NCBI GenBank assembly: GCA_017411325.1
Contig: JAFQQJ010000019.1
Span: 129,540 to 193,539, forward strand
Reading direction: 5' to 3'
Source: Clostridia bacterium
GTDB lineage: Bacteria; Bacillota; Clostridia; CAKSNL01; HGM11501
Length of the DNA: 64,000 bases
Of this stretch, positions 26,754-44,300 are shown piece by piece. The translations under genes and the position numbers were made by a program. The notes below the pieces were generated by a model. It ran no database searches and was not told the origin of the DNA. It saw only the letters and a program-made list of their open reading frames with translations. The first letter of the stretch is position 1. Each line of letters starts with the position of its first letter.

Positions 26754-26841
26754 TGTCATTCTGAGTGGAGCGTCAGCGACCGAAGAATCTCTGTTCAACC
26801 GGTGCAGGAAACAGAGATCCTTCACTGCGTTCAGGATGACA
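26754..26841. repeat. Inverted dimer of the TGTC-tagged palindromic (REP-like) repeat
   Basis: TGTCATTCTGAG...CGAAGAATCTC (26754-26791) and GAGATCCTTC...TTCAGGATGACA (26814-26841). Same family as 37873-38842. Confidence 0.85.
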
Positions 26842-26988
26842 GCGGGGTGGTTTAGGATGACAGCGGGGTGGTTCAGGATGACAGCGGGGTGGTTCAGGAT
26901 GACAGCGGGGTGGTTCAGGATGACAGCGGGGTGGTTCAGGATGACAGCGGGGTGGTTCAGGATGACAGCGGGGTGGTTCAGGATGACA
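26829..26988 (+). repeat. 21-bp tandem repeat (about 7.6 copies) derived from the REP end
   Basis: (GCGGGGTGGTTCAGGATGACA)x7 from 26842 to 26988. One copy has TTTAGG. No spacers. Confidence 0.95.
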
Positions 26989-27127
26989 TTGAGTTTAGTT
27001 TATGATGATGTTGAATTTAGCTCAGGATACATCAGGTTCAATTTCGCATAACATTGCGTTTTGTCCCCGGTGTGCTTTTTGACTATATCGGTAATTTGTA
27101 AAGCAGTTCCCGTTACAGCAGAGTTAC

Positions 27128-27160
27128 AAAAAAACTCCGAGGCTTAGCCTCGGAGTTTTT
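27128..27160 (-). terminator. Intrinsic terminator of the giant surface-protein gene
   Basis: AAAAAACTCCGAGGC-TTA-GCCTCGGAGTTTTT. Confidence 0.8.
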
Positions 27161-27163
27161 CAA

Positions 27164-30100
27164 TTATTTACCTAAGTTTAAGAGTCTCTGAAGCATTGTA
27201 ACTGCTTCTGCCTTTGTAGCATTAGACTTGGGACCGAATGTACCATCGGGATAACCGTTGATAATTCCCTTGTCAGCTGCCCAGTTAACCTGGTAGTTTG
27301 CATATGTTGCAATTTCTGCCTGGTCAGCAAAGCCTGCTTCCTTGGTAATTGTCCAATCGTGACCCATAAGAGTTGCATAACGGTAAATCATTGTAGCCAT
27401 CTGCTCACGTGTGATGTTCTCATAAGGAGCAAAGGTGGTTTCTGATGTACCCTGTGTGATTCCGCTCTTAACTGCCCAAGCTACTGCATTTGTGAACCAG
27501 TCGCCAACGTTAACGTCGGTGAAGTTGTGTGCACCGTCAGTAGTCTGACCGGACATTAAGTAGAGAATCTGACAGAATTCAGCTCTTGTAATGCTCTTGT
27601 CGGGCTCAAACTTGCCGTCTGCTGTACCGTTTACAAGGTAAGCTACATACATTTCACCGATGGTCTTTTCACCCCAGTGACCTGCGATGTCAGAAAGCTC
27701 GCTTGCGCTTCTTACTCTTCTGTAATAGGGATAAAGTGTTACGTTTTCGATTACACCGGTATTTGCATAAGGTACTGTAAATGCCTCGTCAAGATACCAG
27801 CCGATGAAGTCGTAGCCTTCCTTAGCAGCGGGATCTGCGATTATTGTGCCGGTTGCAGCCTTCTGAGTGCCGATACCAACCAATGTGATTGTGTGCTGGT
27901 TAACATTTGCACCTGTTCCAACGCCGCCACCGATAAGACCTGTGCCGGAGGAAGAAGATCCGCCGCCACCGCCAACGGAAGGTCTCTTTGTACCTTCGTC
28001 ATCGCCGCCGGATTCCTTAGCTTCCCAAACTGCTGTGAATGTTACATCCTCAGCAACCATTGTAAATCTTGCGCCTGCCTTATAGGTTTCGCCGTCGCTG
28101 GAAGCTTCCCAACCAACGAACTTGCTGCCTGTAAGCTTTAACTTGCTTTCGGGTAACTTGAAGGTTTCGCCTTCTGTGTAAAGGTCTGCTTCGGGAAGTG
28201 TTCCTGTAGCACCGTTTACATCCTCGTATGTTACGGCGAATACGTCAACGCCTGCAGCAACTGCGAGGATTTCGATGTCACCCTTTACGTTCTTAACAAC
28301 GATTTCACCTGTAGCTGAATCGTAGGTGTAGTCCTGACCTTCCTTAAGTTCAGCACCGTCCATTACAACGGTGATTTCTTCGGGAAGCTCTTCTCCCTCT
28401 TCGGGAACAAGAGTGATTTCAGCATTTTCACCGTAAGGTACCTTTGTTTCTTCGATTTCTGCTTCGAGCTTCTTAACGTCAGCTGTAATCTTTGCATAAC
28501 CTGCTTCGATTGCAGCAAATTCAACTGTTACTGTTGCATCGCCGAAGAGATCGTCGATTTCATATTCCTGAGATGCAGAACCTGTGTAGGTAATGTCACC
28601 TGTAAGGAGATTTTCTGTTACAACCTTTTCGGTGAATGTGATTTCGCCGATTGAGCAATGGCTGTTTCCTGCTGTGAAGGTTGAGTAAATTTCAAACTTG
28701 ATACCGTCGATATAGCCTACATCTGCAAGAGCTATCATATCGGTTATATCATTCTGATTTGTGTTGCCTTCTGCAAGAAGTACATCGTAGTTTTCGCCAC
28801 CGTCTGTTGTTGCCCAAACCTTATAATCCTTAACCTTCTGTCCCGGATAGTAAGCTGTACCGTCAGTATTCATTCTTCTTGTATGAGTCATTTCGGAAAT
28901 CATCATAGGCTCATCAAAGAGAGCTGTGATCCAGTAAGGACCGTCGGAAAGCAGATGAGTGGGGTTGGGAGAACCGGTTGTCTTTGTTTCGTATTCGGAA
29001 TGCCAATAGGTTTTGTCATTTCCGTCAAATGCTTTGGTTACGGGTTCCATTGCATTTGTTGCAGCAAATTCCCAATCCTTCTTGTCGGTAACGCGAACAT
29101 ACTTAACGTCATCTTCGCCCTTACCTTCAAGTGTCCAGCCAGCGGGCTCATAGCCTGCTGCGCCTTCAGCTACGAATACAAGGTTTTCGTGTCTTCCTAC
29201 CATGGAGCCTGATGCAACTTCTTCTTCAACCTCTTCGCCTGTTGCCATATCAGTGTATCTTACAACAGCCTTGAGTGTTCCGTTTTCGCCTGCAGAATAG
29301 TTTACTTCATATTCTTCAGCTTCAGCAATTGTTACGGGAACGAGTATGTCCTTACCTACGGCAAAGCCTACGGAAAGAACTATTTCGTCACCTACATTGT
29401 AACCGCCGTCGATGAAGAAGTACTTGGAAATTGTGAAGGATTCTTCGTCGCAGAAGTAGTAAGCGGAATTTACGGGTACTAAAACGTCTTCTCCGTCTTC
29501 TTCTGTTACGATAGAGATTGTGCCGAGTGTGATGGAGTCATTCCATTCAACATTGAATGTAAGGTCTTCAAGTGTTGCCAGGCTGTATGTTGCTGAGCCG
29601 GGCTTGATGTCTGCTGCTTTAAGGTCTGCATTTGCGCTGGAAGGCTCATAGAGACAGATTTCTTCAAGACCTATGGGCTGCCATGCACCGTTCTTGGTGG
29701 GATATACTCTTACATATCTTGCACTTACATTTGTGGGAACGCCGTCAACGATAAACTTCATATCGTCAAATGCGTTTCTGTTGTAGTTAAGGCTGTCAAG
29801 GTTTCCTGCACCGAAGGTCTGGATATCGGACTTAACCCAGTTAATACCGTCGTTGGAAACTGCCATATAACCTTCCTTGATGGTTGTGAAGTACTGTCTT
29901 ACACCGCCGTCAGCCCAGATTCTGTGGTAGAGTCTTACACCGGAGAACTCGTGAGGAATCTTATAGTCAACCTCGAAGTAACCGGGAGCATCGTTCCAGA
30001 TTGCACTTGTGCCGCTGGGGCTGTAAATCATAAATGTATCGTCGTGCGTTAATGCTGTATGAGCCCAGTCGCTGTTGGTAAGTGCCGATCCGTCAGACTT

Positions 30101-33100
30101 GGTTGTTACCTTTCTGTTGGTGATTGTAGCGATATTACCGCTTGCAACACCGGAAACGATTCTTGCTTCGTGATCGAAGTGGTAAGGTGTTACTTCCTGG
30201 GGGAACATCTTCTTGGAGAAGTCCATATACTTAACAGTAACGGATCCAACCTTACCTGTGGAGGTTTCGATTGCAAGAACTACATCGCCTTCAGTTGTAA
30301 TTGTATTAAGAGCAGCTGCCTTAATTACGATTGTATCTGTTTCAGCATCATACTCATACTGAGAAGCTGTAAGTGTTGTAGAACCAAGAACAACCTTGGA
30401 GATTGTTGTATCGCCGATATCCTCGATGGAAATTTCGATTTCCTCATCTGTTGCATTAATGTCCTTCTTAACAGTCGCATCGCTTAATACTGCGAGAGCG
30501 GGCTTTATGAAGTGAATTGTATCAGCAGTGGGATAGTTTGCACCGGTGATATTGATTCTGATGTAACGGAAGTTGGAATTCTGGTTAAACTTCATTACAT
30601 AAGCACCTGCAGCACCTGCAGCCTTGCCTGTGTAAAGTTCGGTCCATGTTGCATAGTCATCAGAACCGGAAATTGTTACACTGGGCCAGTCAGCAGAGTT
30701 TGCACGGGACTGATAACGGATACCGCCAACTTCTTTCACGTCTGTTCCCATATCAACATCGATATAGTGATTCTTGGTATCGGGAGTTGCACTTCCGTTT
30801 ACAGAAGTATATGCACCGTGATAGTTCTGTACGTGCTGTCTGTTATAAGCAGCCTTAACGAAGGTGTTTACGGGATGCAATCCGGGATTTGCCGCATTGT
30901 TTCTTACCTTCCATGTAGCACCTGTTACAACTTCGTCAGCAAGGAATGTTGTTGTAACATCAGAGCTTACCTGATACCACTGGGCATAAATCTTAACTGT
31001 GTATTCCTTTGTTGTGTTATCTTCAAAGGTTACTGTAACGGGCTGTTCATAACCAACAGTCTCGTCAGCACTGAGCTTTGCGAAAACATCTGCCGCGGGC
31101 TTGAAGTGGTATCTCAAAATTGTGATTTCTGTGGGATTCTGTGCGAATTCAACAGCTGTTTCACCAACAGAAACACTCTTTGCAGTCTTGCCTGTTGCAT
31201 TTGTGAGGGTAAGTGTTCCGGAACCGTTGTAGTCAGTTCCGCTTGTCAGCCAGTATTCTGCAACGGAAAGGTCTTTTACGATTAACTTAACCTTTGCAGT
31301 TTCGCCGGATTCGAAGGAGATTTCAGCTTCGTATTCGCCGACTTCAAGGCTTTCAAGGTAAGATGCCTTGAAGGTGATGCCCTTAGTTCCGTCAAGAACA
31401 TAGTCTGTATCAGCAGTGATTGTATCAGAGCCAACCTTTACGCCTGTTACGGCATAGGTGTTGTCAGAGTTGAATGTTCTTGTTGCATCTTCGATATCTT
31501 CGGAAAGGTCAACATTGATGTCGCCGCCGACTACTCTTGTGGAAGCAGCGATGAATACGATTTCATGAGTGAACATAAAGCCGTGTGAATTCATCTGCTG
31601 ATAACTATCAACGTCAACTCTTGCATAACGGTAGTTTGCATTGTCCTGAAGGTTAACCTGTGCTGTCTTTGAGTTGTTGCCGGAAATGCTTCCGAGCTTA
31701 GTCCATGTAACAAGGTCATTTGAACCGTAGAGGCTTACATCTACCATATTGTAGGACTTATCTGTGATGCGTACGCCGGCAAACTTTGTTGCATTGCCAA
31801 AGTCAACCCATGTGGAGTAGGGACCTACTGCACGGGCAAAGTGCTGTTCGCCCTTTTCTGCACCTGTTTCATCATAATATGTTGATGTCCAGGAGTTGGA
31901 GTTTGTAGCATCGCCGTAGTTACCGTTGAACCAGTTTGCAGCTGCGTGTGCAAGGGATGCACCGCCGTTTACTGTTACCTGCCAGCCTGTGGGTGTGATT
32001 CCGTCAGCATCTGCTGCTGCAAGAGCACCGTTTACTGCTCTCCAGGTATAGTTTGCATTAAGAACGATTTCCTTGGTTGTGCCGTCGGAAAGAGATACTT
32101 CAACAACGTGCTTTCCGGGGCCGTTATTTGTGATTTCACGAACGAAGAAGCCGTTGAAGGTGTTTTCTGTTACTTCGTCACCTACTGCGATGCCGAGAGT
32201 AGCATTTGCTCTTCTGAACTTCATATAGTTGCCGCCGTTATTGTGGCTTGTGATACTGTTCTGAGTGGATGAGTAGAGCCACATTCTGTATTCTTCGCTC
32301 TTATAGTAGTTACCGCCGAGGGTAAGTGTGATTGTGCCGTCACCGTTTGTTACAGCCTTCCACTCGTCAGCAGCGTTTGTAACTTCTTCACCGTTATACT
32401 TAACGCCTGTAACTGTTACATCGTTAGCAGCTGTGTAAAGCTTGTATTCAAGTGTTGCATAACCAAGCTTACCGCTTGCAGAATCGGTAGGATCAATGCT
32501 TCTTACAAGACCTGCTAAAGCTGCTTCTGCCTTTTTAAGGTCTGCAATATTGATTGTTGCCTTATCTGTATCAGAAAGAGATTCGTAAATTTCACGAAGC
32601 TCTGCTACTGCTTCAGCATCGTCAGTTGTTACTTCGGAAGCGGGAAGCTCCGCAATCATGTTGTTGAGCTCGGTTCCTGCAAGTGCAAGCCAAGCAGCTT
32701 CTGCAGATGTAAGCACATCATAGTTTTCTACTGCTGCCTGAACAGCGGGAGCTAATGCATCGTATGCCTTACGAGCAGCATCGATTGCAGTTTTGCTTTC
32801 CATTGTTACGGGTGTGCCGATTGCATTAATTAAGGTTTCAACAGCTTCAGCCTGAGCTGCGAGTGCTGCTGTGATTTCTGTAGGAGTCTTTGTTTCAACG
32901 CCTGCTACGGGATTAAGAAGTCTTACTTCTTCAAGTCCCCAGTGACCGGAATTTGTTGCAGTACACTCAATTCTTACATAACGTGCTTTTACGTTGTATG
33001 CTGTGCCGCCAAACTTAACGGGAAGTGTTGTACTTCTTGCAGAATCAACTGAGAATGTGTCTGCCTGAACCCAGTTGATTCCGTCTTCGGAAACATATAC

Positions 33101-36100
33101 ATTACCCTTTGTGAAGTATGCGGCGGAGTTCTGTCTTCCGTAAACGCGTACGCCGGAGAAATCAGCAACATAGCCAAGGTCATAATCGATGTAGGTCTTC
33201 TTGTAGTTGTAGCCAGCTTCCATTCCGCCCTTATAGCCACCTATGCACCAGTCAAAGCATACCTGGAATGCACGTCCTGCACCATCGGTTCCGCCGATTT
33301 CCTGGTAATAAGCAGCATCAAGAATGACGCCGTCTATCAAAGTACCTTTGCCAAGGTTTGAGTAGGTAGAAGTAAGGTCGGTAACTGTATTATCAGCTTT
33401 TACGCCATATGCCTTGGTTGTACCGATGGGATATTCCATATTAACTTCATCTGTACCGAGTGCTACCTTGAGAGCAACGGGCTTTAATACCTGAAGCTCT
33501 GTAATGTTTGTATAGGATGTATTTCCGTCAATGCCGGAAACAACGATAAACTTAATACCCTTGAACTTGTTGTTTCTTCCCTGTGCGAGATAAGCTTCCT
33601 TATATTCTTCCTTGGTTCCGGAAGTGAAGCCAAGCTTTGTTTCGCCAAGAATGTCAACCCATGTTGTTCCGTCGTAAGTTCCCTGCATCTTTATCACATT
33701 GGGAGATGCACCGCCGCCACCTTCAGTTCTGGGGAATACTCTTACGCCGCCAACCTCTGTAAGCTTATCAAATATAATAGTTACGGTTGTGTCTTCATCT
33801 GTATAGATATGATCTGCCACATTTGCAATTGAGTGCCAGCAGTTACCCATATTTCCGTAAACAGTACCGTCGTAAAGCTTATCTACTCCGTAAGAACCGG
33901 AGGAACCATATTCACTTCCTACTGTCCATGTCCAGTCTGTGGGATTTTTGTAGTAGTCATCAAGTGCATCCAAAGCGCTCTTTGTCGCTTCCTCAAATTC
34001 AGCAACGGTAAGAGCCTCCTTGCCCTCAACGGGATCGATAAGTCTTAATTCGGATACGGACCAGTGCTCATTTGTATCTGCTCCGCCTGTCTGAACTGCT
34101 TCAAGCTTGATATAACGTGCTTTGATGTTTTCATTTACACCCTGTGCAAGAGCCTTTGCATCGAAGAATAAATCGGTGCCGGCACCTTCTGAAAGCTCAG
34201 CCTGTACCCAATCAGTTCCGTTGTCGGATACATAGAGATAACCCTTTGTAACGGACTGCGTGTTCCATACATTACCTTCAGCATTCTTTCTTGCGTATGC
34301 TCTGATACCGGAGAAGGTCTGCTCTGCACCAAGGTCAACTATAAGCCATGCAGTCTTTGAATCTGCAGGATAAATTGCATAGTTTATTTCAGCATGGTTG
34401 TTTGCTTCGGGAAGGATATTGTCCGTAAGTTTACCAAGGTTTGCCATGGTCTTTCCTGCTGTGGAGCCACTCTCAATCTTCCATAAGGGATAGGTTGTAA
34501 AGTCATCATCCTGGAAGGGTGATGTGTACTCTACGGGCTTTAATATCTGAAGCTCAACAATGTTGGTGTGAGCGGTTGTGCTTCCGCTTAAGTTCTTTTC
34601 AACGATGTAGCGGATACCCATAAACTTATTGTTAAGATCGCCGCTTAAGAGGTTTGTGCCCTGCCATACACCGTCGTCTGTTGTAGCGTCATCATCTGTG
34701 CCGCCCTTAAGGCCTGTGCTTAAATCGTCAGCAGCAACGAACCAGTTTTCACCGTCATAGGTTGCTTCAATTCTTACAACGCCGGGGTTACCGCCATACT
34801 GACGGTTATTGTTTGTGGAGTCGTGACGACCGTAAACTCTGAAACCGCCAACATCAATTGCGGTTTTGAACATTACCGTAATTGTTCTCTGCGCTTCTGT
34901 AACGGGGCTTGTTGCAGAAGAATGCCAGTAGCTGCCGTTATCGTCCGCACCAATTGTTCCGTCAGCCTTAACGTTGTCTGTAACACCGTCAAATGCATCT
35001 GTAACGGGAGAACCTGCGTTCCATTCGGAGCCTGCTTCCATAGAATCGAAGTACTTGGAAGGATCGTAATAATCAAGAGAATCTTCGGGAATTACAACTG
35101 AAGCTTCTGTCTTTTCCTTGAAGCCTGTAACTGTCACTGTATCAAGAGAGTCATTTTCCTTTACAAGTAAAAGCTCCTGAACAGACCAGTGTGCGCCGTT
35201 TGTCTGGCTTGTTTCTACCTTTATATAACGTGCAGTTACGTTATAAGCTGTTCCCTTTGCCTTTAAGGGTGCTTCCATATATACATCATCTGTGGATGCA
35301 TACTTTGACATATTGGAGCCGTTTCCGGGCACGCCGAGGGCTTCATCAAACGCCTTACCAACCTGTGTCCATGTATCGGTGTACTCTTCTGCCGCTACCC
35401 AGGTGCTTCCGTCGTCGGAAACATAGATTGTGGCATTCTTCATGGACTGGTTGGGCTGTCCCCAACGACCGAAGAGACGTACAGCGGAGAAGGTGTATGC
35501 CTTACCAAGGTCAATTTCCATCCACGCCTTGTCGCCCTCAGCCTTGAAGATATTGTTCATCTCCATATGAGGATCGCCGCTTGCAGCACCTGTGTAGGGA
35601 TTATAATAACCTTCAGCTTCGTTTACGAACTGATAGATAGTCTTATCAAAGAGACCGCCGAGAGGTCCGCCTGTTACGCCCTGAGTGGAGTTTCTTGCAA
35701 CAACTGCGGGAGTTGTATCAAACCAGATAACATCTTCCTCATAAGCATAACCCTTCTTGGGCTTTAATACCTGAAGCTCACAGAAGCAGGTGTGTTTGTC
35801 TGTTGCATTGGATATATTTTTATCAACCTGGAACTTAACAGCCTTGTATGCAACGCCTGTCTGAACTAAAAGTTCAACACTCTGTTCTGTAGTGCTGTAT
35901 GTGATTTCAGTGCTGGGAAGAATTTCTTTAAATGTCGTTCCGTCAGTAGATGCAAGAACAGTTACCATTTTTGGATTTCCGCCCTTGTTATCAAAACGGG
36001 GGAATATTCTGAAGCCGCCGATTTTCTGTGCTTCAGTAAATGTAACTGTAACAGTTCTGTTTTCTGCTGTTGCACCCGCTGTGGGACTTGTATGCCAGTA

Positions 36101-37606
36101 TGCACCGTCATCTGTTGTAGCGGTTGTTGCCTGCCATATGCCGTCGAAAAGGTTACCAACGGGTTTCCAGTCGCCGCCATAGCCGGAGGGGCTTGTTGCT
36201 GTAAACCAAGCACTCTGGAGGTAATAATCTCTCTTGGCTTCTGCAAGAGCGGGATCATATTCTTCTGCAGTAATCGTATCAAGTTCTTCATCAGCATCAA
36301 GCATAATGATTTCTTCAATATCAAACTGACCGTGAGCATTTACACCCGTTACACGGAACTTGATATAACGTGCTTCAACGTTTACAGCTGCGCCGTCAAA
36401 TTTAAATCCGAAATCACCGTACTGAGGTGTAACTTCTGTTGTACGGGTGGTGGTTGCAGATGCAAGTGTGCCCCAGGTTTCTCCGTCTTCAGAAACCTGA
36501 ATTTCAAGGGCTGTTGCCTTTCTTGCCTTCATACCTCTTGCCTTATGGTCGTCCATAAGTCTGATACCGGAGAAGGTTTTAACATCACCCAGGTCAATCT
36601 GAAGAACAGTTGCATTTGAAGTATCGCCTGTATACCAGCCCATTGCACCTTCGGTAGCACCGCTGATTGTGGGGAATACGTCAAAATCAGCAGTTGTGGA
36701 TGCACCGGTCTTTAAGCCTTCGGTATAAAGTCCGTTATAGGTGGACGCAAGGTTACCCTGAAGGCTACCGGATACCTTTGTAACAACAGCACCGGTAAGT
36801 TCGGTAAGATATGTAACACCGTCGCCTTCAGCGGGAACAAGAGCCTTTGCTGTTACGCCTTCAACATTTGTTACAGAAAAGTCCTCGGATGTGAGGGTGT
36901 CGTTTGCATCGTTTTCGTCAAGAAGAACGATTTCTTCAATTTCCCATTCGCCCCAGTTGTTAACTGCGGTTACGTTAAACTTAAAGTAACGTGCTTCTAC
37001 GTTTACAGCTGCAGAGCTTTTCTTGAATGCAAAGTCTCTGTATTTAGTTGCAAAGTCTTCATTTGTTGCATTGTCAAGGGCATACCAAAGCACACCGTCA
37101 GCGGATACTGACAGCGAAACGGTCTTTGCCTTTCTTGCGCTGTAATGTCTTGCTCTTGAAGAGTCATAAAGACGGATACCGGAGATAGTCTTCGCTGCGC
37201 CCATATCAACGGTAACAGTTGTCTTACCCGGCTGACCCATAAAGCCTGTGGGTGTTCCGTTGGGCTCATAAAGTCCCTGGTCAGCATTACTTACTGTATA
37301 CTTACCGTCGATAGTCTTTGTGATGTTACCTTCAGCAGATCCTGTGCTTACCTGGCTTACGCTTGCGCCGGTAAACTCGGTGAAGTATGTAACACCGTCA
37401 CCTTCAGCAGCTTCAAATGAAGCCACGTCGGAGTTAGCCAAAAGCTCAACTTCCTCCTCCCCGTAAATTTCAACTAATTCGTCCTCGGAAACTTCCTCAA
37501 TTGCAGGAATTTCCAGTACCTCTTCTGCGAAAGAGGTGATTGCTGCCGCAGGTGCCAATGTCATAATCATGCACAATGCGAGCAGTACAGATAAGATTTT
37601 TCTCAT
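27164..37606 (-). CDS. Giant (3480 aa) SLH-anchored surface protein with about 12 discoidin/CBM32-like domains, X2/Ig-like spacers, helical repeats and InlB B-repeat-like domains
   Basis: Signal peptide. Repeated discoidin motifs (FDG, YWH, FSG.R, VS.DG..W, ARY.K, E..L). AIDAARKAYDAL helical repeat. F.GWY.D repeat. Gly/Ser linker. Three SLH motifs (F.P...ITRAEF, ITREQMA, ATKAEA). Confidence 0.88.
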   Translation of the reverse strand: MRKILSVLLALCMIMTLAPAAAITSFAEEVLEIPAIEEVSEDELVEIYGEEEVELLANSDVASFEAAEGDGVTYFTEFTGASVSQVSTGSAEGNITKTIDGKYTVSNADQGLYEPNGTPTGFMGQPGKTTVTVDMGAAKTISGIRLYDSSRARHYSARKAKTVSLSVSADGVLWYALDNATNEDFATKYRDFAFKKSSAAVNVEARYFKFNVTAVNNWGEWEIEEIVLLDENDANDTLTSEDFSVTNVEGVTAKALVPAEGDGVTYLTELTGAVVTKVSGSLQGNLASTYNGLYTEGLKTGASTTADFDVFPTISGATEGAMGWYTGDTSNATVLQIDLGDVKTFSGIRLMDDHKARGMKARKATALEIQVSEDGETWGTLASATTTRTTEVTPQYGDFGFKFDGAAVNVEARYIKFRVTGVNAHGQFDIEEIIMLDADEELDTITAEEYDPALAEAKRDYYLQSAWFTATSPSGYGGDWKPVGNLFDGIWQATTATTDDGAYWHTSPTAGATAENRTVTVTFTEAQKIGGFRIFPRFDNKGGNPKMVTVLASTDGTTFKEILPSTEITYSTTEQSVELLVQTGVAYKAVKFQVDKNISNATDKHTCFCELQVLKPKKGYAYEEDVIWFDTTPAVVARNSTQGVTGGPLGGLFDKTIYQFVNEAEGYYNPYTGAASGDPHMEMNNIFKAEGDKAWMEIDLGKAYTFSAVRLFGRWGQPNQSMKNATIYVSDDGSTWVAAEEYTDTWTQVGKAFDEALGVPGNGSNMSKYASTDDVYMEAPLKAKGTAYNVTARYIKVETSQTNGAHWSVQELLLVKENDSLDTVTVTGFKEKTEASVVIPEDSLDYYDPSKYFDSMEAGSEWNAGSPVTDAFDGVTDNVKADGTIGADDNGSYWHSSATSPVTEAQRTITVMFKTAIDVGGFRVYGRHDSTNNNRQYGGNPGVVRIEATYDGENWFVAADDLSTGLKGGTDDDATTDDGVWQGTNLLSGDLNNKFMGIRYIVEKNLSGSTTAHTNIVELQILKPVEYTSPFQDDDFTTYPLWKIESGSTAGKTMANLGKLTDNILPEANNHAEINYAIYPADSKTAWLIVDLGAEQTFSGIRAYARKNAEGNVWNTQSVTKGYLYVSDNGTDWVQAELSEGAGTDLFFDAKALAQGVNENIKARYIKLEAVQTGGADTNEHWSVSELRLIDPVEGKEALTVAEFEEATKSALDALDDYYKNPTDWTWTVGSEYGSSGSYGVDKLYDGTVYGNMGNCWHSIANVADHIYTDEDTTVTIIFDKLTEVGGVRVFPRTEGGGGASPNVIKMQGTYDGTTWVDILGETKLGFTSGTKEEYKEAYLAQGRNNKFKGIKFIVVSGIDGNTSYTNITELQVLKPVALKVALGTDEVNMEYPIGTTKAYGVKADNTVTDLTSTYSNLGKGTLIDGVILDAAYYQEIGGTDGAGRAFQVCFDWCIGGYKGGMEAGYNYKKTYIDYDLGYVADFSGVRVYGRQNSAAYFTKGNVYVSEDGINWVQADTFSVDSARSTTLPVKFGGTAYNVKARYVRIECTATNSGHWGLEEVRLLNPVAGVETKTPTEITAALAAQAEAVETLINAIGTPVTMESKTAIDAARKAYDALAPAVQAAVENYDVLTSAEAAWLALAGTELNNMIAELPASEVTTDDAEAVAELREIYESLSDTDKATINIADLKKAEAALAGLVRSIDPTDSASGKLGYATLEYKLYTAANDVTVTGVKYNGEEVTNAADEWKAVTNGDGTITLTLGGNYYKSEEYRMWLYSSTQNSITSHNNGGNYMKFRRANATLGIAVGDEVTENTFNGFFVREITNNGPGKHVVEVSLSDGTTKEIVLNANYTWRAVNGALAAADADGITPTGWQVTVNGGASLAHAAANWFNGNYGDATNSNSWTSTYYDETGAEKGEQHFARAVGPYSTWVDFGNATKFAGVRITDKSYNMVDVSLYGSNDLVTWTKLGSISGNNSKTAQVNLQDNANYRYARVDVDSYQQMNSHGFMFTHEIVFIAASTRVVGGDINVDLSEDIEDATRTFNSDNTYAVTGVKVGSDTITADTDYVLDGTKGITFKASYLESLEVGEYEAEISFESGETAKVKLIVKDLSVAEYWLTSGTDYNGSGTLTLTNATGKTAKSVSVGETAVEFAQNPTEITILRYHFKPAADVFAKLSADETVGYEQPVTVTFEDNTTKEYTVKIYAQWYQVSSDVTTTFLADEVVTGATWKVRNNAANPGLHPVNTFVKAAYNRQHVQNYHGAYTSVNGSATPDTKNHYIDVDMGTDVKEVGGIRYQSRANSADWPSVTISGSDDYATWTELYTGKAAGAAGAYVMKFNQNSNFRYIRINITGANYPTADTIHFIKPALAVLSDATVKKDINATDEEIEISIEDIGDTTISKVVLGSTTLTASQYEYDAETDTIVIKAAALNTITTEGDVVLAIETSTGKVGSVTVKYMDFSKKMFPQEVTPYHFDHEARIVSGVASGNIATITNRKVTTKSDGSALTNSDWAHTALTHDDTFMIYSPSGTSAIWNDAPGYFEVDYKIPHEFSGVRLYHRIWADGGVRQYFTTIKEGYMAVSNDGINWVKSDIQTFGAGNLDSLNYNRNAFDDMKFIVDGVPTNVSARYVRVYPTKNGAWQPIGLEEICLYEPSSANADLKAADIKPGSATYSLATLEDLTFNVEWNDSITLGTISIVTEEDGEDVLVPVNSAYYFCDEESFTISKYFFIDGGYNVGDEIVLSVGFAVGKDILVPVTIAEAEEYEVNYSAGENGTLKAVVRYTDMATGEEVEEEVASGSMVGRHENLVFVAEGAAGYEPAGWTLEGKGEDDVKYVRVTDKKDWEFAATNAMEPVTKAFDGNDKTYWHSEYETKTTGSPNPTHLLSDGPYWITALFDEPMMISEMTHTRRMNTDGTAYYPGQKVKDYKVWATTDGGENYDVLLAEGNTNQNDITDMIALADVGYIDGIKFEIYSTFTAGNSHCSIGEITFTEKVVTENLLTGDITYTGSASQEYEIDDLFGDATVTVEFAAIEAGYAKITADVKKLEAEIEETKVPYGENAEITLVPEEGEELPEEITVVMDGAELKEGQDYTYDSATGEIVVKNVKGDIEILAVAAGVDVFAVTYEDVNGATGTLPEADLYTEGETFKLPESKLKLTGSKFVGWEASSDGETYKAGARFTMVAEDVTFTAVWEAKESGGDDEGTKRPSVGGGGGSSSSGTGLIGGGVGTGANVNQHTITLVGIGTQKAATGTIIADPAAKEGYDFIGWYLDEAFTVPYANTGVIENVTLYPYYRRVRSASELSDIAGHWGEKTIGEMYVAYLVNGTADGKFEPDKSITRAEFCQILYLMSGQTTDGAHNFTDVNVGDWFTNAVAWAVKSGITQGTSETTFAPYENITREQMATMIYRYATLMGHDWTITKEAGFADQAEIATYANYQVNWAADKGIINGYPDGTFGPKSNATKAEAVTMLQRLLNLGK

Positions 37607-37872
37607 GATGTTTCCTCCCTTTGCTTCTTATCATATTGATAGTATTTTTTTGCACGATTTCAAGATGCGGAGATTCGTCAGCCGACAATCCACGCATTAT
37701 GATATCATACTGTATCATATATAATACATCAAAATGCCCCCCTATGTCAACAAAAAAAAACTTTTTCGAAACATTTTTTTTACCTTTCTGTAAAGAAACG
37801 TCTTTCTTTTGGCGAAGTGCACAAAGTTTTTGTTTTTTTATGTGCATTTCGACGGATGGGAGGGGAAAAAGA

Positions 37873-38064
37873 GAGATTCTTCGTCCTGCGGACTCAGAAT
37901 GACATAGGGGGGGTGCTGTCATTCTGAGCGGAGCGTAAGCGCAGCGAAGAATCTCACGCTTCACTGTCATTCTGACGACGGCGTTTTGCAAAAAAACGCC
38001 TACGGAAGAATCTCACTCCAGGCACCGTGCGGGAGATCCTTCGGGCAGTGCCCTCAGGATGACA
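37873..38064. repeat. Left array of TGTC-tagged palindromic repeats (4 units)
   Basis: Reverse unit 37873-37904, forward units 37917-37955 and 37965-38014, reverse unit 38033-38064. Consensus TGTCATYCTGA...GAAGRATCTC. Confidence 0.92.
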
Positions 38065-38116
38065 CGGGGGGTGAACGACAGCGGGACAGTTTTATAATAA
38101 AAGAGCGGCACGAACT

Positions 38117-38401
38117 TTACTCGTACCACCCTTTACTTAAATCATCCCATTCGGGATTTATTTCATTTATCAGCGCATCCTTCTTTGCCCTTAGCCACCC
38201 TTTTATCTTTTTTTCAAAAGCAATAGCCTCTTTTATATCAGAAGTTTCATTATAATATACAAGCTTAGTCAGGTTATACTTGCTCGAAAACCCTTCTACA
38301 AGTCTATTCTTATGCTCATAAATACGCCTTTTTAAGTCATTGGTCACCCCAGTATAGAGCACCTTATTATTTTTATTGGTTATCATATAGACGTAATACA
38401 T
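38117..38401 (-). CDS. Small standalone GIY-YIG nuclease (94 aa, UPF0213-like)
   Basis: YYVYM...LYTGVT..L.RR..EHK...F..KY....LVY....AIAFEKKIKGW.R.KK..LI...NP.W.DL. RBS AAGGAG. Confidence 0.92.
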   Translation of the reverse strand: MYYVYMITNKNNKVLYTGVTNDLKRRIYEHKNRLVEGFSSKYNLTKLVYYNETSDIKEAIAFEKKIKGWLRAKKDALINEINPEWDDLSKGWYE

Positions 38402-38421
38402 AAGTTCATCTCCTTTTTCTT

Positions 38422-38452
38422 ATTATACTAAATTGAAAGGGATATTTCAATT
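38422..38452 (-). promoter_or_regulatory. Sigma-A promoter of the GIY-YIG gene with an overlapping inverted repeat
   Basis: Minus strand TTGAAA (38450-38445), 17 bp, TATAAT (38427-38422). Palindrome AATTGAAA-N6-TTTCAATT (38431-38452). Confidence 0.7.
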
Positions 38453-38469
38453 ATTATTTCAAGATAAAA

Positions 38470-38842
38470 GAGATCCTTCGGGCAGAGCCCTCAGGATGAC
38501 ATGGGGGGAGGGCTGTCATTCTGAGCGGAGCGTAAGCGCAGCGAAGAATCTCACGCTTCACTGTCATTCTGACGACGGCGTTTTGCGAAAAAAACGCCTA
38601 CGGAAGAATCTCTCACTCCAAGCACTGTACAGGAGATCCTTCGGGCAGAGCCCTCAGGATGACATGGAGGGAGGGCTGTCATTCTGAGCGAAGCGTCAGC
38701 GTAGCATTGTCATTCTGAGCGGAGCGAAGAATCTCACGCTTCACTGTCATTCTGACGACGGCGTTTTACAAAAACGCCTATGGAAGAATCTCTCATCTAT
38801 CACCGTGCAGGATATCCTTCGGGCAGAGCCCTCAGGATGACA
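38470..38842. repeat. Right array of TGTC-tagged palindromic repeats (7 full units + 1 partial)
   Basis: Reverse units at 38470, 38633, 38811. Forward units at 38514, 38562, 38677 (partial), 38708, 38745. Higher-order period 163-178 bp. Confidence 0.92.
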
Positions 38843-38856
38843 CGGGGGTGCATAAC

Positions 38857-38884
38857 AAAAAAGGAGGGATTGCTCCCTCCTTTT
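38857..38884 (-). terminator. Intrinsic terminator of module 2
   Basis: AAAAAAGGAGGGA-TTGC-TCCCTCCTTTT. Confidence 0.75.
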
Positions 38885-38885
38885 A

Positions 38886-41369
38886 TCATTTCGTTATTGT
38901 AACTGTCTGTGCCTCTCCGTTCCAGGAAACGTTATAGCCTAAAATTTCCGATACGAATCTTACGGGTATAAAGGTACGGTTTTCCGATATCACCGGGGGA
39001 TTTAAGAGAGTATACATCATCTTGCCCTTGGGATAGCGTGTATCAGACACCCACACGATATTGTTCCATATCTGAAGCTCGATTGTCATAACCTCGGTTT
39101 TAAGGGTGATTTTCTCCTTTGCACCGTCCCAGGCAATTTCTGCGCCCATTTCCTCAACCAATCCTCTTAAGGGGATTAATGTTGAGCCGTTTACGATGAA
39201 GGGAGCAACATCCAAAACCTTTTCACTTTCGGTCTTTTCCCTGCCTTTAACGGCTTTTATGGTTTTATCGCCGATTTTAAGGGTATAGGTTTCGCTTGCT
39301 TCTTCCGTTCTTTCCTTTCGTGCCGTTCCCGACTCAAAGAAGGAAATGTCCGTTGCGGAAACTCTGCCCGCGTTATATTCCAGAATTTCGATATCGAAAT
39401 ACTTAACCTCGATTTCCTCGTCAAACACAACTACCTTTTCCGATACATCATCGGCAAAGGTGACTTCCTTTTCAGAAAATTCAAGACCATCAACTGACCA
39501 GCGCAAGATTGCCTTGTACCATAAGCCGTGTTTATCCTCAGACCGTCTCGGAAGATAATGGAATTCCTTAATCTTATATACCTCGCGGAACTCAACCTCG
39601 ATGGTTACGGGGCGTGTTCCCGTGGTTTCCGTCTGCCATATGGTATCCGACCTTCCGTCAAAGGCTCTGTTTATGGTGTTATTGTTCCACACAGGCTCTG
39701 TGCAGTAGCCCGTCGTCTCCTCCGTCGGTATCTGATAGAGTCTGTGAAGCACCTCATAGTCCTGATATGCGGAAAGTGCCACGGTTTCAAGGTCGTCCCT
39801 TCCCTTTACGGCACTAAACTCCGCAAAGCTTCCTATGTTACCGTTTCCTCCCTTTATTATAAGACGTATTCTTTTAGCCTCGATATTTCCCACAAGGCGG
39901 AAATTTCTTATTGCACCGAATGCCGCCGTCTGCGAAAAGGCGATGGACTCGTTTTCAAGTATAGTGTAAAATGCGCCGTCATCCGAGCCTGATGCCTGAA
40001 GGTCAAAAAGCTTTACGTCGCCGGAGTGGGAATCGGTTCTCGGCAAAATTACAAATTCCGAAATTTTTGTAAGCTCGGGAAGTGTGAAGTCGATGGTATA
40101 AGGCGGCTTCTGCAGATTTTTCGCCTTGCCGTCCTCAACCTCGTAGTAGGAATGCCAGATGGTCTTCTGTTTTCCGTCAATTAAGTTTTTCGCAGGTGCA
40201 CCCTTAAATTCCGAGTCCGCAGTAGCCGTCCAGCCTGCCTTCGGCACTTCGTTTTCAACTGTGAAGTCGGAGGCGGGCTCTGCCGGTTTTTCCTCCTTGG
40301 GCTCATCCTTTGCAGATTCGCCTTTTTCGCTTCCTTTAATAAACTCAAGCTCGCCGCAGGTGGCATAGCCTGTTCCGTAGGAATCGGTTATTTCAATTTT
40401 TACGCCGAGAAGCTCCATATCGCCCCAGGAGAGTGTCTGCGCTGCGTGGCGCATGGCATCTGACGAAAGCTTGTATTTAAATATTTCCTTATATTCTTCC
40501 CCGTCGGTTGTTCCGTAAACGGTCATCGCCCTTACGGTTCCCGATTCAGAGTCGCTTCGGGGGGTGTAGATAAGTCCCGACACGGTAAGGGGGCTTACGA
40601 AGTTTACGGTGATATAGTGGGGCCACTTTTCAACATCCGTAAGCTTTCCGTCTACCACACCGTAGCGGGTATGCCAGAAGGTAGAAGGATTTCCGTCAAA
40701 TATTTTCTTTATTGTTCCGCCAAGGTCAGATGTGGTCTCTACAAGCCAGGATGCATCATAGGGGATTTTTTCATAGGGAGCTTCCTCTTCCTTTTTACCG
40801 TCAGCGGTAATTGTACCGGGAGTTACAACGGCGTTTTCAGCCTTTGCCTCACCGCCTGTTAAAAACTGAAGCTCACCGCAGGTGGCATAGCCCGAGCCGT
40901 ATGAATTGGTTACTTCAATTTTTATGGCGGTCATTTCCCTGTTGCCCCAGGAAACTGTTTTGGAATCGAAACGCCCGGCATCGCCTGAAAGCTTATATTC
41001 CGCAATTTTTGTAAAGGTTTCCCCGTCGGTGGATGAGTATACATTCATCGCCCTGACGGTTCCCGAATCAGAATCGCTTCGGGGTGTGTAGATAAGTCCC
41101 GACACGGTTAACGGGCTTATAAAGTTTACGGTTATGTAGTGAGGCCACTTTTCAACATCAGAAAGCTTTCCGTCAACCACACTGTAGCGGGTGTGCCAGA
41201 AGGTTGATGCATTTCCGTCAAATATCTTATTGATTGTTCCTCCAATGTCGGAGGTTGTTTCAACAAGCCAGGATGCATCATAGGGGATTTCCGTTTCCGC
41301 GGCACATACAGGCACAAGGAGACTTATTGCAAGCAAAAGTGTAAGAATTATCGAAAATATTTTCTTCAT
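38886..41369 (-). CDS. Secreted protein with 4 discoidin domains + stalk domain (module 2)
   Basis: Signal peptide. Two near-identical IPYDASWLVETTSD units plus two further discoidin units. C-terminal DVAPFIVNGSTLIPLRGL and RTFIPVRFVSE. Confidence 0.85.
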   Translation of the reverse strand: MKKIFSIILTLLLAISLLVPVCAAETEIPYDASWLVETTSDIGGTINKIFDGNASTFWHTRYSVVDGKLSDVEKWPHYITVNFISPLTVSGLIYTPRSDSDSGTVRAMNVYSSTDGETFTKIAEYKLSGDAGRFDSKTVSWGNREMTAIKIEVTNSYGSGYATCGELQFLTGGEAKAENAVVTPGTITADGKKEEEAPYEKIPYDASWLVETTSDLGGTIKKIFDGNPSTFWHTRYGVVDGKLTDVEKWPHYITVNFVSPLTVSGLIYTPRSDSESGTVRAMTVYGTTDGEEYKEIFKYKLSSDAMRHAAQTLSWGDMELLGVKIEITDSYGTGYATCGELEFIKGSEKGESAKDEPKEEKPAEPASDFTVENEVPKAGWTATADSEFKGAPAKNLIDGKQKTIWHSYYEVEDGKAKNLQKPPYTIDFTLPELTKISEFVILPRTDSHSGDVKLFDLQASGSDDGAFYTILENESIAFSQTAAFGAIRNFRLVGNIEAKRIRLIIKGGNGNIGSFAEFSAVKGRDDLETVALSAYQDYEVLHRLYQIPTEETTGYCTEPVWNNNTINRAFDGRSDTIWQTETTGTRPVTIEVEFREVYKIKEFHYLPRRSEDKHGLWYKAILRWSVDGLEFSEKEVTFADDVSEKVVVFDEEIEVKYFDIEILEYNAGRVSATDISFFESGTARKERTEEASETYTLKIGDKTIKAVKGREKTESEKVLDVAPFIVNGSTLIPLRGLVEEMGAEIAWDGAKEKITLKTEVMTIELQIWNNIVWVSDTRYPKGKMMYTLLNPPVISENRTFIPVRFVSEILGYNVSWNGEAQTVTITK

Positions 41370-41382
41370 CTATACCGCCTCC

Positions 41383-44124: not shown

Positions 44125-44300
44125 AGCTATTCCCTTCCTTTCAGTTTGATAATATAATTATACATTATCCCGTGCTTTTTGTCTTTATCATCAATTCCGA
44201 CGTATTTATCATTTATTCCACGAAAAATTTTTCTTTTCTTTTTGGGAAAAATGTGGTATTATATATTAATGGAAGAAATTTTGAAAGGAGAAGTGTCATT

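What the first reader, a model, noticed from the sequence alone, without database searches (positions are those of the whole stretch)
37873..38842. Standalone GIY-YIG nuclease gene embedded in higher-order arrays of TGTC-tagged palindromic repeats: candidate nuclease-driven REP system
Seen: a 94-aa GIY-YIG ORF with intact YVY, YTG, Arg, His and Glu motifs, its own consensus promoter and an RBS. It is flanked by 12 units of one repeat family (4 left, 8 right). Every unit has a 4-nt TGTC tail and a conserved ATYCT...AGRAT stem, but the inner hairpin varies (GAGCGTAAGCGC, GGCGTTTT..AAAACGCC, GGGCAGAGCCC, GTCCTGCGGAC). Units form a repeated [reverse-forward-forward] block of 160-178 bp, so 37873-38064 and 38470-38664 are direct repeats bracketing the gene. 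Established: GTAG-REPs are cleaved and maintained by flanked RAYT HUH transposases (REPtrons), and palindromic repeats with YGTC-type ends are known in many bacteria. Inference: here a GIY-YIG nuclease occupies the position a RAYT has in a REPtron and may nick or propagate these hairpins. As far as I know, that function has not been mechanistically characterised.
Basis: partly seen in the sequence, partly recalled or inferred. Interest (0 to 1): 0.8.

Follow-up and report, generated by a model that had tools for sequence, protein, structure and literature searches.

The report
Ssn ssDNA nuclease with cognate hairpin repeats
The small GIY-YIG gene and the TGTC-tagged hairpin repeats around it are a new example of the Ssn nuclease and repeat system described in 2025, so the pairing is real but already explained.

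Summary
A 94-aa single-domain GIY-YIG gene (38117-38401, minus strand) sits inside 12 units of one repeat: TGTC, ATYCT, GA, a variable inner hairpin, GA, AGRAT, C. The genome holds 88 full units against 1-5 in shuffles.

The nuclease-repeat link is real. Across 80 homolog loci from many phyla, such units are about 17 times denser within 600 bp of the gene. 63 of 80 loci have at least one unit and 48 of 80 have units on both sides.

The system is already published as the Ssn family (cd10448) with Ssn-related motifs (Chenal et al. 2025, PMC11893778). SsnA binds the hairpin only as ssDNA and cuts a few nucleotides upstream. Our protein is 49% identical (E=5e-29) to a 94-aa Neisseria-genus protein flanked by canonical NTS repeats, and the catalytic Tyr, Tyr and Glu align.

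Three things appear new:
- The published search string misses this repeat class (0 of 88 units).
- The repeats bracket giant surface-protein genes.
- A close relative has lost ssn at the same locus yet keeps 39 repeat heads.

Propagation of the repeats by the nuclease remains unproven. Verdict: new member of a known kind, modest interest.

The parts
38117..38401 (-). ssn gene: a 94-aa single-domain GIY-YIG nuclease of the Ssn family
   Evidence: ORF. Pfam PF01541 at E=3.6e-19. 49% identity, E=5e-29, to an NTS-flanked 94-aa Neisseria-genus protein. Y5, Y16, G18, R26, H30 and E63 are conserved in 80-81 of 81 aligned homologs.
38422..38450 (-). Promoter-like site TTGAAA-17-TATAAT upstream of ssn
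   Evidence: 11 of 12 consensus matches. This is a pattern match only. The region gave 5 sites against 2.5 expected.
38410..38415 (-). AAGGAG ribosome-binding site 8 nt upstream of the ATG
   Evidence: Read directly from the sequence.
37873..38064 (.). Left repeat block of 4 units: 37873-37904 (-), 37917-37955 (+), 37965-38014 (+), 38033-38064 (-)
   Evidence: All 4 units fold as a 5-bp outer stem, a 2x2 GA/GA internal loop and an inner stem.
38470..38664 (.). First right repeat block of 4 units: 38470-38501 (-), 38514-38552 (+), 38562-38612 (+), 38633-38664 (-). It is a direct repeat of the left block.
   Evidence: family D3, 90% over 128 nt, spacing 597. Folds.
38677..38842 (.). Second right block: truncated unit 38677-38707 (+), then 38708-38735 (+), 38745-38792 (+), 38811-38842 (-)
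   Evidence: The truncated unit lacks the 3' arm and does not form the outer stem.
26754..26988 (.). Second repeat cluster, on the other side of the giant gene: one full unit (+), one full unit (-), and a 21-nt tandem array of head-only fragments (26829-26988, 7.6 copies)
27164..37606 (-). 3480-aa surface protein gene (F5/8 type C x8, SLH x3, CBM_X2) with a repeat cluster on each side
   Evidence: ORF, Pfam, flanking clusters.

Best explanation
This is an Ssn-family (cd10448-type) site-specific single-strand DNA endonuclease gene sitting among its cognate Ssn-related motif (SRM) repeats.

**Mechanism, inferred from the characterised Neisseria, N. elongata, N. wadsworthii and Wolbachia enzymes.** The 94-aa protein binds a repeat unit only when that strand is single-stranded and folded. 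It reads the base of the hairpin: the GTC head, the ATYCT/AGRAT stem, and the C just after the stem. It then cuts a few nucleotides 5' of the head, on that strand only.

**The repeat class here.** The unit has a 5-bp outer stem, a conserved tandem GA/GA internal loop and a freely variable inner hairpin.

**Likely role, inferred and weaker.** The enzyme trims ssDNA that carries the repeats. That would limit recombination across the loci the repeats bracket, which in this genome are mainly giant surface-protein genes.
For: **Shown here**
- The protein is a single-domain GIY-YIG of 94 aa.
- It is 49% identical (42 of 85 residues, E=5e-29) to a 94-aa protein from a Neisseria-genus genome. That protein has Y6, Y17 and E64, the residues mutated in the paper, and is flanked by 15 canonical NTS copies within 3.3 kb.
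- 20 of 61 Neisseria-genus genomes hold a homolog, with E from 9.6e-8 down to 1.4e-23; 19 of the 20 are at 5.7e-16 or better.
- One homolog lies 50 bp from a canonical NTS in locus L163.
- The units share the features the paper found critical: GTC before the palindrome, a palindrome starting with AT, and C right after it. T precedes GTC in 84 of 88 units. GA follows the 5' arm in 81 of 88 and precedes the 3' arm in 85 of 88.
- 10 of 12 local units fold into the same outer stem.
- Across 80 homolog loci, generic units run at 2.76 per kb within 600 bp against 0.165 per kb beyond. 63 of 80 loci have at least one unit and 48 of 80 have units on both sides.
- Repeat-arm class clusters on the protein tree: 18 changes against 35.7 +/- 2.2 in shuffles, with 0 of 500 shuffles as low. 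Each class spans several phyla.
- Within the genus, the two ssn-positive genomes have the most heads (91 and 71). The 10 genomes where ssn was not found have 0-39.
- Occupied spacers are enriched next to genes of 1500 aa or more: 8 of 29 against 23 of 2018, odds ratio 50, p=2.7e-10. Those genes carry F5/8 type C domains, and the one in the window also has SLH domains.

**From the paper**
- ssDNA-only binding and cleavage upstream of the motif.
- Loss of activity in the Y6A, Y17A and E64A mutants.
- 71% of homologs flanked by SRMs.
- NTS clusters near surface-protein genes.
- Reduced transformation by NTS-bearing DNA.
Against: - No biochemistry exists for this protein or this repeat class.
- The published SRM search string matches 0 of the 88 units here. 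It hits within 600 bp of the gene in only 10 of 80 homolog loci. Membership of the repeats therefore rests on shared anatomy, not on the published definition.
- The CDD cd10448 assignment could not be run.
- Repeat-rich relatives without a detected ssn exist: G068 (39 heads, 95% complete), G122 (85 heads, 95%) and G089 (14 heads, 98%). UvrC is their only GIY-YIG match. The repeats therefore do not need the nuclease to persist.
- ComEC and DprA are present, but they are near-universal, so competence is not shown.
- The role in recombination control is taken from one species in another phylum.
Confidence: 0.82

Rival explanations
1. A selfish, IS-like or REPtron-like element. In this reading the repeat-ssn-repeat unit is or was mobile, and the nuclease generates and spreads the repeats.
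For: - The gene is flanked on both sides in 48 of 80 loci.
- Homologs reach 60-69% identity across unrelated phyla.
- Repeat class follows protein clade, not phylum.
- Some genomes are multi-copy: 9 matches in G003 and 3 in G006.
- The two ssn-positive congeners carry the most repeats.
- A head-only 21-nt array has 7.6 copies here but 2 in each of two congeners without a detected ssn.
Against: - The gene is single-copy in this genome.
- It lies at the same locus, between the same genes, in G065 although the flanks are only 70-80% identical. That argues for vertical descent.
- Its absence from G068 maps to the repeat blocks themselves, which looks like recombinational deletion and not excision.
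- GIY-YIG enzymes are hydrolytic nucleases with no known strand-transfer step (general knowledge, not tested here).
- Repeats remain abundant where no ssn was found.
Confidence: 0.12
2. The repeats are ordinary REP-like intergenic hairpins, such as terminators, mRNA stabilisers or protein-binding sites, unrelated to the nuclease. The gene happens to lie in a repeat-rich spacer.
For: - About 88 of 91 heads are intergenic; only 3 lie inside a predicted ORF of 349 aa or more.
- Units occur in spacers between tandem or convergent genes.
- Repeats persist in genomes without a detected ssn.
- No Rfam family matches, so this reading is neither helped nor harmed by that search.
Against: - Units are 17-19 times enriched next to homologs in 80 independent loci from many phyla.
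- Repeat class co-clusters with the protein tree.
- The published enzyme family binds such motifs with nanomolar affinity and does not bind RNA.
Confidence: 0.04
3. A free-standing GIY-YIG homing endonuclease or a UPF0213/YhbQ-type housekeeping nuclease with no repeat specificity.
For: It has a GIY-YIG domain. There is a weak hit to the group I intron endonuclease model TIGR01453. There is a weak hit to the UPF0213 structure 1zg2.
Against: - TIGR01453 scores 21.3 bits against a cut-off of 56 and covers only residues 4-35.
- The protein has no DNA-binding extension; it is 94 aa.
- 1zg2 matches only at E=0.004.
- The UPF0213-like 91-aa protein of a Neisseria genome gives no tblastn hit at E up to 10.
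Confidence: 0.02

Closest known systems
SsnA / NTS and the Ssn family with Ssn-related motifs (Chenal et al., Nat Commun 2025, PMC11893778; Results, Discussion and one Methods section read)
   Same: - A 94-aa single-domain GIY-YIG protein with aligned catalytic Tyr, Tyr and Glu, 49% identical to a Neisseria-genus homolog.
- The gene is embedded in oriented hairpin repeats with a GTC head, an AT-initiated palindrome and a C after it.
- Repeats are dispersed in intergenic clusters that bracket surface-protein genes.
   Different: - The host is an animal-gut Clostridia-type genome, not a Gram-negative.
- The repeat stem is ATYCT, then a tandem GA/GA loop, then an inner hairpin of variable sequence and length. 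Units are 21-67 nt.
- NTS has a continuous 9-bp ATTCCCGCG stem.
- The published degenerate search string finds none of these units.
- Copy number is about 90, against hundreds in Neisseria.
- No biochemistry or transformation data exist for this organism.
CGTC-tagged palindromic repeats (Di Nocera et al., BMC Genomics 2013, PMC3733652; passages read)
   Same: A tetranucleotide tag at one end, which that paper says often changes to TGTC. Stems begin with A-T, A-T pairs. That paper found no dedicated transposase.
   Different: Those families have 8-9 bp stems and 4-5 nt loops. Here the stem is interrupted by GA/GA and the inner hairpin varies. No Clostridia are mentioned in that paper's main text (0 occurrences).
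REPtrons: RAYT (IS200/IS605-type HUH tyrosine transposase) with GTAG-tagged REP/BIME repeats
   Same: A single gene flanked by the hairpin repeats that its product recognises as ssDNA. Units are arranged in alternating orientation in composite arrays.
   Different: The enzyme fold and chemistry are unrelated: a GIY-YIG hydrolase against an HUH/Tyr transesterase. The tag is TGTC, not GTAG. No transposition activity is known for Ssn.
UPF0213 / YhbQ-type small GIY-YIG proteins (e.g. PDB 1zg2, BH0048)
   Same: Small single-domain GIY-YIG proteins of about 90-107 aa.
   Different: Similarity is only marginal: E=0.004 to 1zg2, and no tblastn hit to a Neisseria UPF0213-like protein. Whether UPF0213-type genes have flanking repeats was not tested here.

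Membership tests
[quoted passage not shown] | Single-domain GIY-YIG protein of about 94 aa with no extra DNA-binding domain | tested here: met
   94 aa. PF01541 covers residues 1-73. The only other Pfam hit is the overlapping T5orf172 domain, E=1.6e-4.
[quoted passage not shown] | Homology to Neisseria SsnA at E<1e-10 (the paper's tblastn criterion) | tested here: met
   BLASTP gives E=5e-29 and 49% identity over 85 aa to L213:1489-1770. That is a 94-aa protein of a Neisseria-genus genome with Y6, Y17 and E64, flanked by canonical NTS.
[quoted passage not shown] | Catalytic residues equivalent to Y6, Y17 and E64 | tested here: met
   Y5, Y16 and E63 align with them. They are conserved in 80 of 81 aligned homologs.
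[quoted passage not shown] | Top CDD hit is cd10448 | not testable with these tools
[quoted passage not shown] | Gene flanked by oriented hairpin repeats with a GTC head and a C after the palindrome | tested here: met
   4 units to the left and 8 to the right. 10 of 12 fold with the shared outer stem.
[quoted passage not shown] | Repeats match the published SRM search string HGTCWYN(0-2)YYVSBRHN(0-5)WNVSBRGN(0-2)RNCYNB | tested here: not met
   The string gives 10 hits in the genome and none lies on the 88 units. My implementation matched all 24 expansions of the NTS consensus. The string is a search aid and not a biochemical definition.
[quoted passage not shown] | ssDNA-specific, strand-specific cleavage a few nt upstream of the motif | not testable with these tools
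   This needs purified protein and oligonucleotide assays.
REPtron (RAYT + GTAG REP) | HUH/Tyr IS200/IS605-type transposase and a GTAG tag | tested here: not met
   The protein is GIY-YIG. The tag is TGTC.
CGTC-tagged REP superfamily (Di Nocera 2013) | CGTC or TGTC tag at one end, stem starting with two A-T pairs, 8-9 bp stem and 4-5 nt loop | tested here: inconclusive
   The tag and the AT start are met. Stem and loop geometry differ: a 5-bp stem, a GA/GA loop and a variable inner hairpin.
GIY-YIG homing endonucleases (I-TevI type) | NCBIfam TIGR01453 above its cut-off, and a C-terminal DNA-binding domain | tested here: not met
   21.3 bits against a cut-off of 56.05, covering residues 4-35 only. 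The protein ends at residue 94.
UPF0213 / YhbQ | Clear sequence similarity to UPF0213 members | tested here: not met
   1zg2 matches at E=0.004. The Neisseria UPF0213-like ORF is not hit at E up to 10.

The most novel reading that the evidence does not exclude
This is a distinct Ssn specificity class. The enzyme would read only the base of the hairpin: TGTC, a 5-bp ATYCT/AGRAT stem, a tandem GA/GA loop, and the 3' C. It would tolerate any inner hairpin. The class is shared by Bacillota, Chloroflexota and candidate-phyla bacteria, and the published motif search misses it.

In this gut anaerobe the repeat arrays would act as ssDNA-cleavage fences around giant surface-adhesin genes. Head-only tandem arrays would be scars of cleavage and repair.
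Probability: 0.25. Interest if true: 0.5.

Novelty: new member of a known kind. Interest (0 to 1): 0.3.

Why it matters

The case adds three small points.
- **Repeat diversity.** Ssn-linked repeats are more varied than the published search string captures. It found 0 of 88 units here and hit within 600 bp of the gene in 10 of 80 homolog loci. Published estimates of how often Ssn genes lack repeats may therefore be too high.
- **Repeats around surface-protein genes.** This pattern, first seen in pathogenic Neisseria, recurs in an unrelated Gram-positive-type gut bacterium. That hints at a general role.
- **Loss of the gene.** A natural ssn-minus congener with the locus otherwise intact shows that recombination between the flanking repeat blocks can remove the gene, and that the repeats outlive it.

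A nuclease that ignores the inner hairpin could also be useful as an ssDNA tool. That property is untested.

Tried and rejected
- **Rfam.** An E-value scan of 37600-39000 gave nothing near any gathering score. The best hit was 25 bits against a cut-off of 56.
- **Hammerhead-like reading.** I considered reading CTGA...GAA as a hammerhead core. I dropped it by eye: most units lack the required G8/A9, and A15.1 is G.
- **Two named Neisseria genomes.** N. lactamica and N. mucosa, reached through NTS hits, hold no homolog. Their small GIY-YIG is UPF0213-like. I moved to a genus-wide search.
- **NTS-bearing loci.** Only 2 of 120 hold a homolog. This is expected when a genome has hundreds of NTS copies, so it says little.
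- **G064 fragment.** A GIY-YIG fragment at a contig end in G064 turned out to be the UvrC N-terminus, not ssn.
- **PDB sequence search.** No close solved relative; the only hit was 1zg2 at E=0.004.
- **Expression.** Two metatranscriptome runs, held as contigs only, gave no contig over 38131-38478. They gave only short, diverged pieces of the neighbouring genes. This shows nothing about transcription either way.
- **DNA runs.** Two DNA runs hold the locus at 100% identity, but their contigs break inside the repeats. The ssn gene ends up on 540-584-nt contigs. Failure to find ssn in metagenome-assembled relatives is therefore weak evidence of absence. G068 is the exception, because there the spacer is contiguous.
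- **ComEC and DprA.** Both are present. The same families also ring in 10-11 of 14 control genomes, so competence is not shown.
- **Literature.** Searches for GIY-YIG with 'repetitive extragenic palindromic' gave 0 papers. GIY-YIG with COG2827 gave 1 irrelevant paper. YhbQ or UPF0213 gave 8 papers, none relevant by title or abstract. SsnA, cd10448 and 'Ssn family' terms returned only the 2025 paper as relevant.
- **Supplements.** Supplementary Data 3-5 of that paper could not be opened. They may already list this repeat class or Clostridia hosts.
Full report
**What is there**

The window is G000:C14:129540-193539, in a 2.94-Mb, 42% GC genome of 66 contigs. At 38117..38401 on the minus strand lies a 94-aa ORF. 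It matches Pfam GIY-YIG at E=3.6e-19 over residues 1-73. A promoter-like TTGAAA-17-TATAAT (11 of 12 matches, 38450..38422) precedes it. An AAGGAG lies 8 nt before the ATG.

The gene is embedded in 12 heads of one repeat, 4 to the left (37873-38064) and 8 to the right (38470-38842). Eleven are full units and one (38677-38707) is truncated. The left block and the first right block are direct repeats: 90% over 128 nt, spacing 597.

**Anatomy of the repeat**

Genome-wide there are 91 exact TGTCATYCTGA heads in 40 clusters. I also used a structural definition: GTC, then a 5-nt arm A[T/C]NNN, then 4-60 nt, then the reverse complement of the arm, then C. This finds 88 ATTCT/ATCCT units, against 1-5 in five shuffled genomes.

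- T precedes GTC in 84 of 88 units.
- GA follows the 5' arm in 81 of 88 units.
- GA precedes the 3' arm in 85 of 88 units.
- Unit length runs from 21 to 67 nt, median 35.5.
- ATTCT heads pair with AGAAT tails and ATCCT heads with AGGAT tails. Only 3 heads have a tail of the other type alone in range.

Folded as ssDNA, 10 of the 12 local units give the same minimum-energy shape. It has a 5-bp outer stem, a 2x2 GA/GA internal loop and an inner stem whose sequence differs between units. Z-scores run from -0.18 to -4.24. One unit prefers another fold, and the truncated unit has no outer stem. About 88 of 91 heads are intergenic; only 3 lie inside a predicted ORF of 349 aa or more. Rfam has nothing.

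**Is the nuclease tied to the repeats?**

The genome has only one copy of the gene (tblastn). I fetched 80 loci encoding homologs at 42-82% identity. They come from Bacillota, Chloroflexota, Spirochaetota, Bacteroidota, Pseudomonadota, candidate-phyla bacteria and others.

- The exact head occurs 78 times in the 78.2 kb within 500 bp of the gene, against 30 times in the remaining 584.5 kb. That is 19-fold, and 21 of 80 loci have a head.
- The 8-mer TGTCATTC lies within 500 bp in 41 of 80 loci. Variant stems such as GTCATTGCGAG and GTCATTCCGA are enriched too.
- With the generic structural definition, units run at 2.76 per kb within 600 bp against 0.165 per kb beyond. 63 of 80 loci have at least one unit, and 48 of 80 have units on both sides.

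I then built a quick maximum-likelihood tree of 81 proteins on 90 columns. It is poorly resolved. L075 was dropped because of a stop codon, and 16 rows had no units and went unlabelled. On this tree the dominant arm class (ATYCT, ATYCC, ATTGC or other) changes 18 times. In 500 label shuffles it changed 35.7 +/- 2.2 times, and no shuffle was as low as 18. Each class spans several phyla. Related sequences share labels, so this is not a probability. It does show that repeat class follows the protein and not the host phylum.

**What it is**

A literature search returned Chenal et al., Nat Commun 2025 (PMC11893778). I read its Results, Discussion and the Methods section on the SRM search. The paper reports the following.

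- It defines the Ssn family (CDD cd10448, GIY-YIG_unchar_3).
- The 94-aa SsnA of N. meningitidis binds the repeat CGTCATTCCCGCGMAVGCGGGAATCYRG (NTS). It binds only as ssDNA and only on one strand, and cuts a few nt upstream.
- The three nucleotides before the palindrome govern cleavage. The C right after the palindrome governs binding.
- The Y6A, Y17A and E64A mutants still bind but do not cut.
- 71% of homologs have Ssn-related motifs nearby and 42% have them on both sides.
- NTS copies cluster around surface-protein genes, and SsnA lowers transformation by NTS-bearing DNA.
- The authors point out the repeat-gene-repeat layout and the analogy with RAYT and REP elements.

An earlier paper (Di Nocera 2013, PMC3733652; passages read) described CGTC-tagged repeats. 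It noted that the tag is often changed to TGTC, that stems start with AT, and that they "apparently lack a dedicated transposase".

**Membership tests**

- I scanned genome contigs with the NTS consensus. That led to two named Neisseria genomes without a homolog. A search of 61 Neisseria-genus genomes followed: 20 of 61 hold a homolog, with E from 9.6e-8 to 1.4e-23 (19 of the 20 at 5.7e-16 or better) and 35-52% identity.
- One of these (L213) encodes a 94-aa protein with Y6, Y17 and E64. It has 12 forward and 3 reverse canonical NTS copies within 3.3 kb.
- BLASTP of our protein against it gives 42 of 85 identities (49%), E=5e-29, with no gaps. Y5, Y16 and E63 align to Y6, Y17 and E64.
- Across 81 aligned homologs, Y5, Y16, G18, R26, H30, E63, K67 and R71 are present in 80-81 rows.
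- The protein is not a homing endonuclease. TIGR01453 scores 21 bits against a cut-off of 56.
- It is not UPF0213. The structure 1zg2 matches at E=0.004, and a Neisseria UPF0213-like ORF gives no hit.
- One feature failed. The published degenerate SRM string gives 10 hits in this genome and none on the 88 units. It hits within 600 bp of the gene in only 10 of 80 homolog loci: 1 of 17 ATYCT loci, 7 of 19 ATYCC, 0 of 15 ATTGC, 1 of 12 other, and 1 of 17 with no units.
- The CDD assignment and the biochemistry could not be tested.

**Context in this genome**

Repeat clusters sit on both sides of the 3480-aa gene at 27164..37606. That gene has eight F5/8 type C stretches, three SLH domains and a CBM_X2 domain. 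On contig C63, every spacer in a run of four tandem 2124-2399-aa genes holds a cluster. The three of these that were scanned carry F5/8 type C domains.

I defined spacers as the gaps between crude ORFs of at least 150 aa. 73 of the 91 heads could be placed in such a spacer. 8 of 29 occupied spacers adjoin a gene of at least 1500 aa, against 23 of 2018 spacers overall (odds ratio 50, p=2.7e-10). 6 of the 12 giant genes are flanked. This mirrors what the paper reports for Neisseria.

**Relatives, and evidence against a strict dependence**

I searched 61 genomes: the window's own and 60 relatives. The control pattern gave 0-3 hits per strand. Head counts were as follows.

| Genome | Heads | Completeness | ssn status |
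|---|---|---|---|
| G000 | 91 | 97.8% | present |
| G065 | 71 | 87% | homolog at 82% identity |
| G122 | 85 | 95% | not found |
| G068 | 39 | 95% | not found |
| G064 | 34 | 75% | not found |
| G080 | 21 | 73% | not found |
| G089 | 14 | 98% | not found |

- ssn was found in 2 of these 7 repeat-rich genomes. In G068, G122 and G089 the only GIY-YIG match is a UvrC-sized protein. G080 gave no GIY-YIG match at all. G064 showed only UvrC pieces.
- Within the genus, the two ssn-positive genomes have 91 and 71 heads. The ten others have 0-39.
- Caveat: in two metagenome runs that hold this locus at 100% identity, contigs break inside the repeats. The ssn gene ends up on 540-584-nt contigs. It is therefore easily lost from binned genomes.

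G068 is different, because there the orthologous spacer is contiguous on a 152-kb contig.

- Window 27126-38071 aligns to L228 104-9824. Window 38783-46000 aligns to L228 9848-17078. L228 9618-9848 matches both repeat blocks.
- The segment with ssn and the middle block is missing, and the junction lies inside the repeats.
- G065 keeps ssn at the same locus although its flanks are only 70-80% identical, against 82-90% for G068.
- One loss in G068, by recombination between the flanking direct repeats, is therefore the simplest reading. This is an inference.
- It shows vertical inheritance of the gene within the genus, and persistence of the repeats after its loss.

**Mechanism**

Shown here:
- family membership by sequence;
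- the shared repeat anatomy;
- the cross-phylum association;
- the genomic distribution.

Inferred from the published enzymes:
- binding of the folded unit as ssDNA;
- strand-specific cleavage a few nt 5' of TGTC;
- dependence on GTC and on the 3' C.

More weakly inferred:
- recognition that is limited to the hairpin base and is indifferent to the inner hairpin;
- a role in trimming ssDNA and so limiting recombination around the bracketed surface-protein genes.

ComEC and DprA exist but are near-universal. Propagation of the repeats by the nuclease is not shown. I give it about 0.12.

**Verdict**

This is a new member of a known kind, with a repeat class that the published search string does not detect. 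Interest is modest.

The paper's supplementary tables could not be read and may already cover this repeat class.

Noticed in passing
window 26829-26988: A 21-nt tandem array (7.6 copies, 98% matches) is made of head-only repeat fragments plus 10 upstream bases. The orthologous site has 2 copies in each of two congeners where no ssn was found, and in G068 the heads are mutated. Similar head-only fragments crowd the ssn locus of G065. Their origin is unexplained.
   Followed up: partly
G000:C63:24851-59654 (L217, L218): A tandem run of four 2124-2399-aa genes, with 920- and 995-aa neighbours, has a repeat cluster in every spacer. The three giant genes that were scanned carry F5/8 type C domains.
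   Followed up: partly
window 38708-38737: The shortest full unit (28 nt) collects a contig depth of 370-450 in two gut metagenome DNA runs, against 13-20 for the flanks. It also shows depth in two RNA-library runs. Near-identical units are therefore abundant in many other organisms or loci of those samples.
   Followed up: no
L038, L047, L049, L052, L056, L058, L061, L070 (Acidobacteriota) and L076-L080 (Bacteroidota): Two well-supported clades of homologs have no detectable unit of the generic form within 600 bp. They may use a different head or stem, or may have no repeats.
   Followed up: no
G003 (Sphingopyxis genome), loci L201-L206: This genome gave 9 matches at E from 1.6e-4 down to 7.6e-19; the six strongest are at E 9.8e-13 or better. 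One has an internal TAG, and two sit 1.4 kb apart. This multi-copy state contrasts with the single copy here.
   Followed up: no
window 1193-1978: A ComEC-type competence domain (PF03772, E=8.2e-50) lies in an 801-aa open frame at the start of the window.
   Followed up: no
window 15257 and G000:C59:3752: Isolated heads inside ORFs of 349 aa and 458 aa lack the 3' arm. They look like chance matches, not repeat units.
   Followed up: yes
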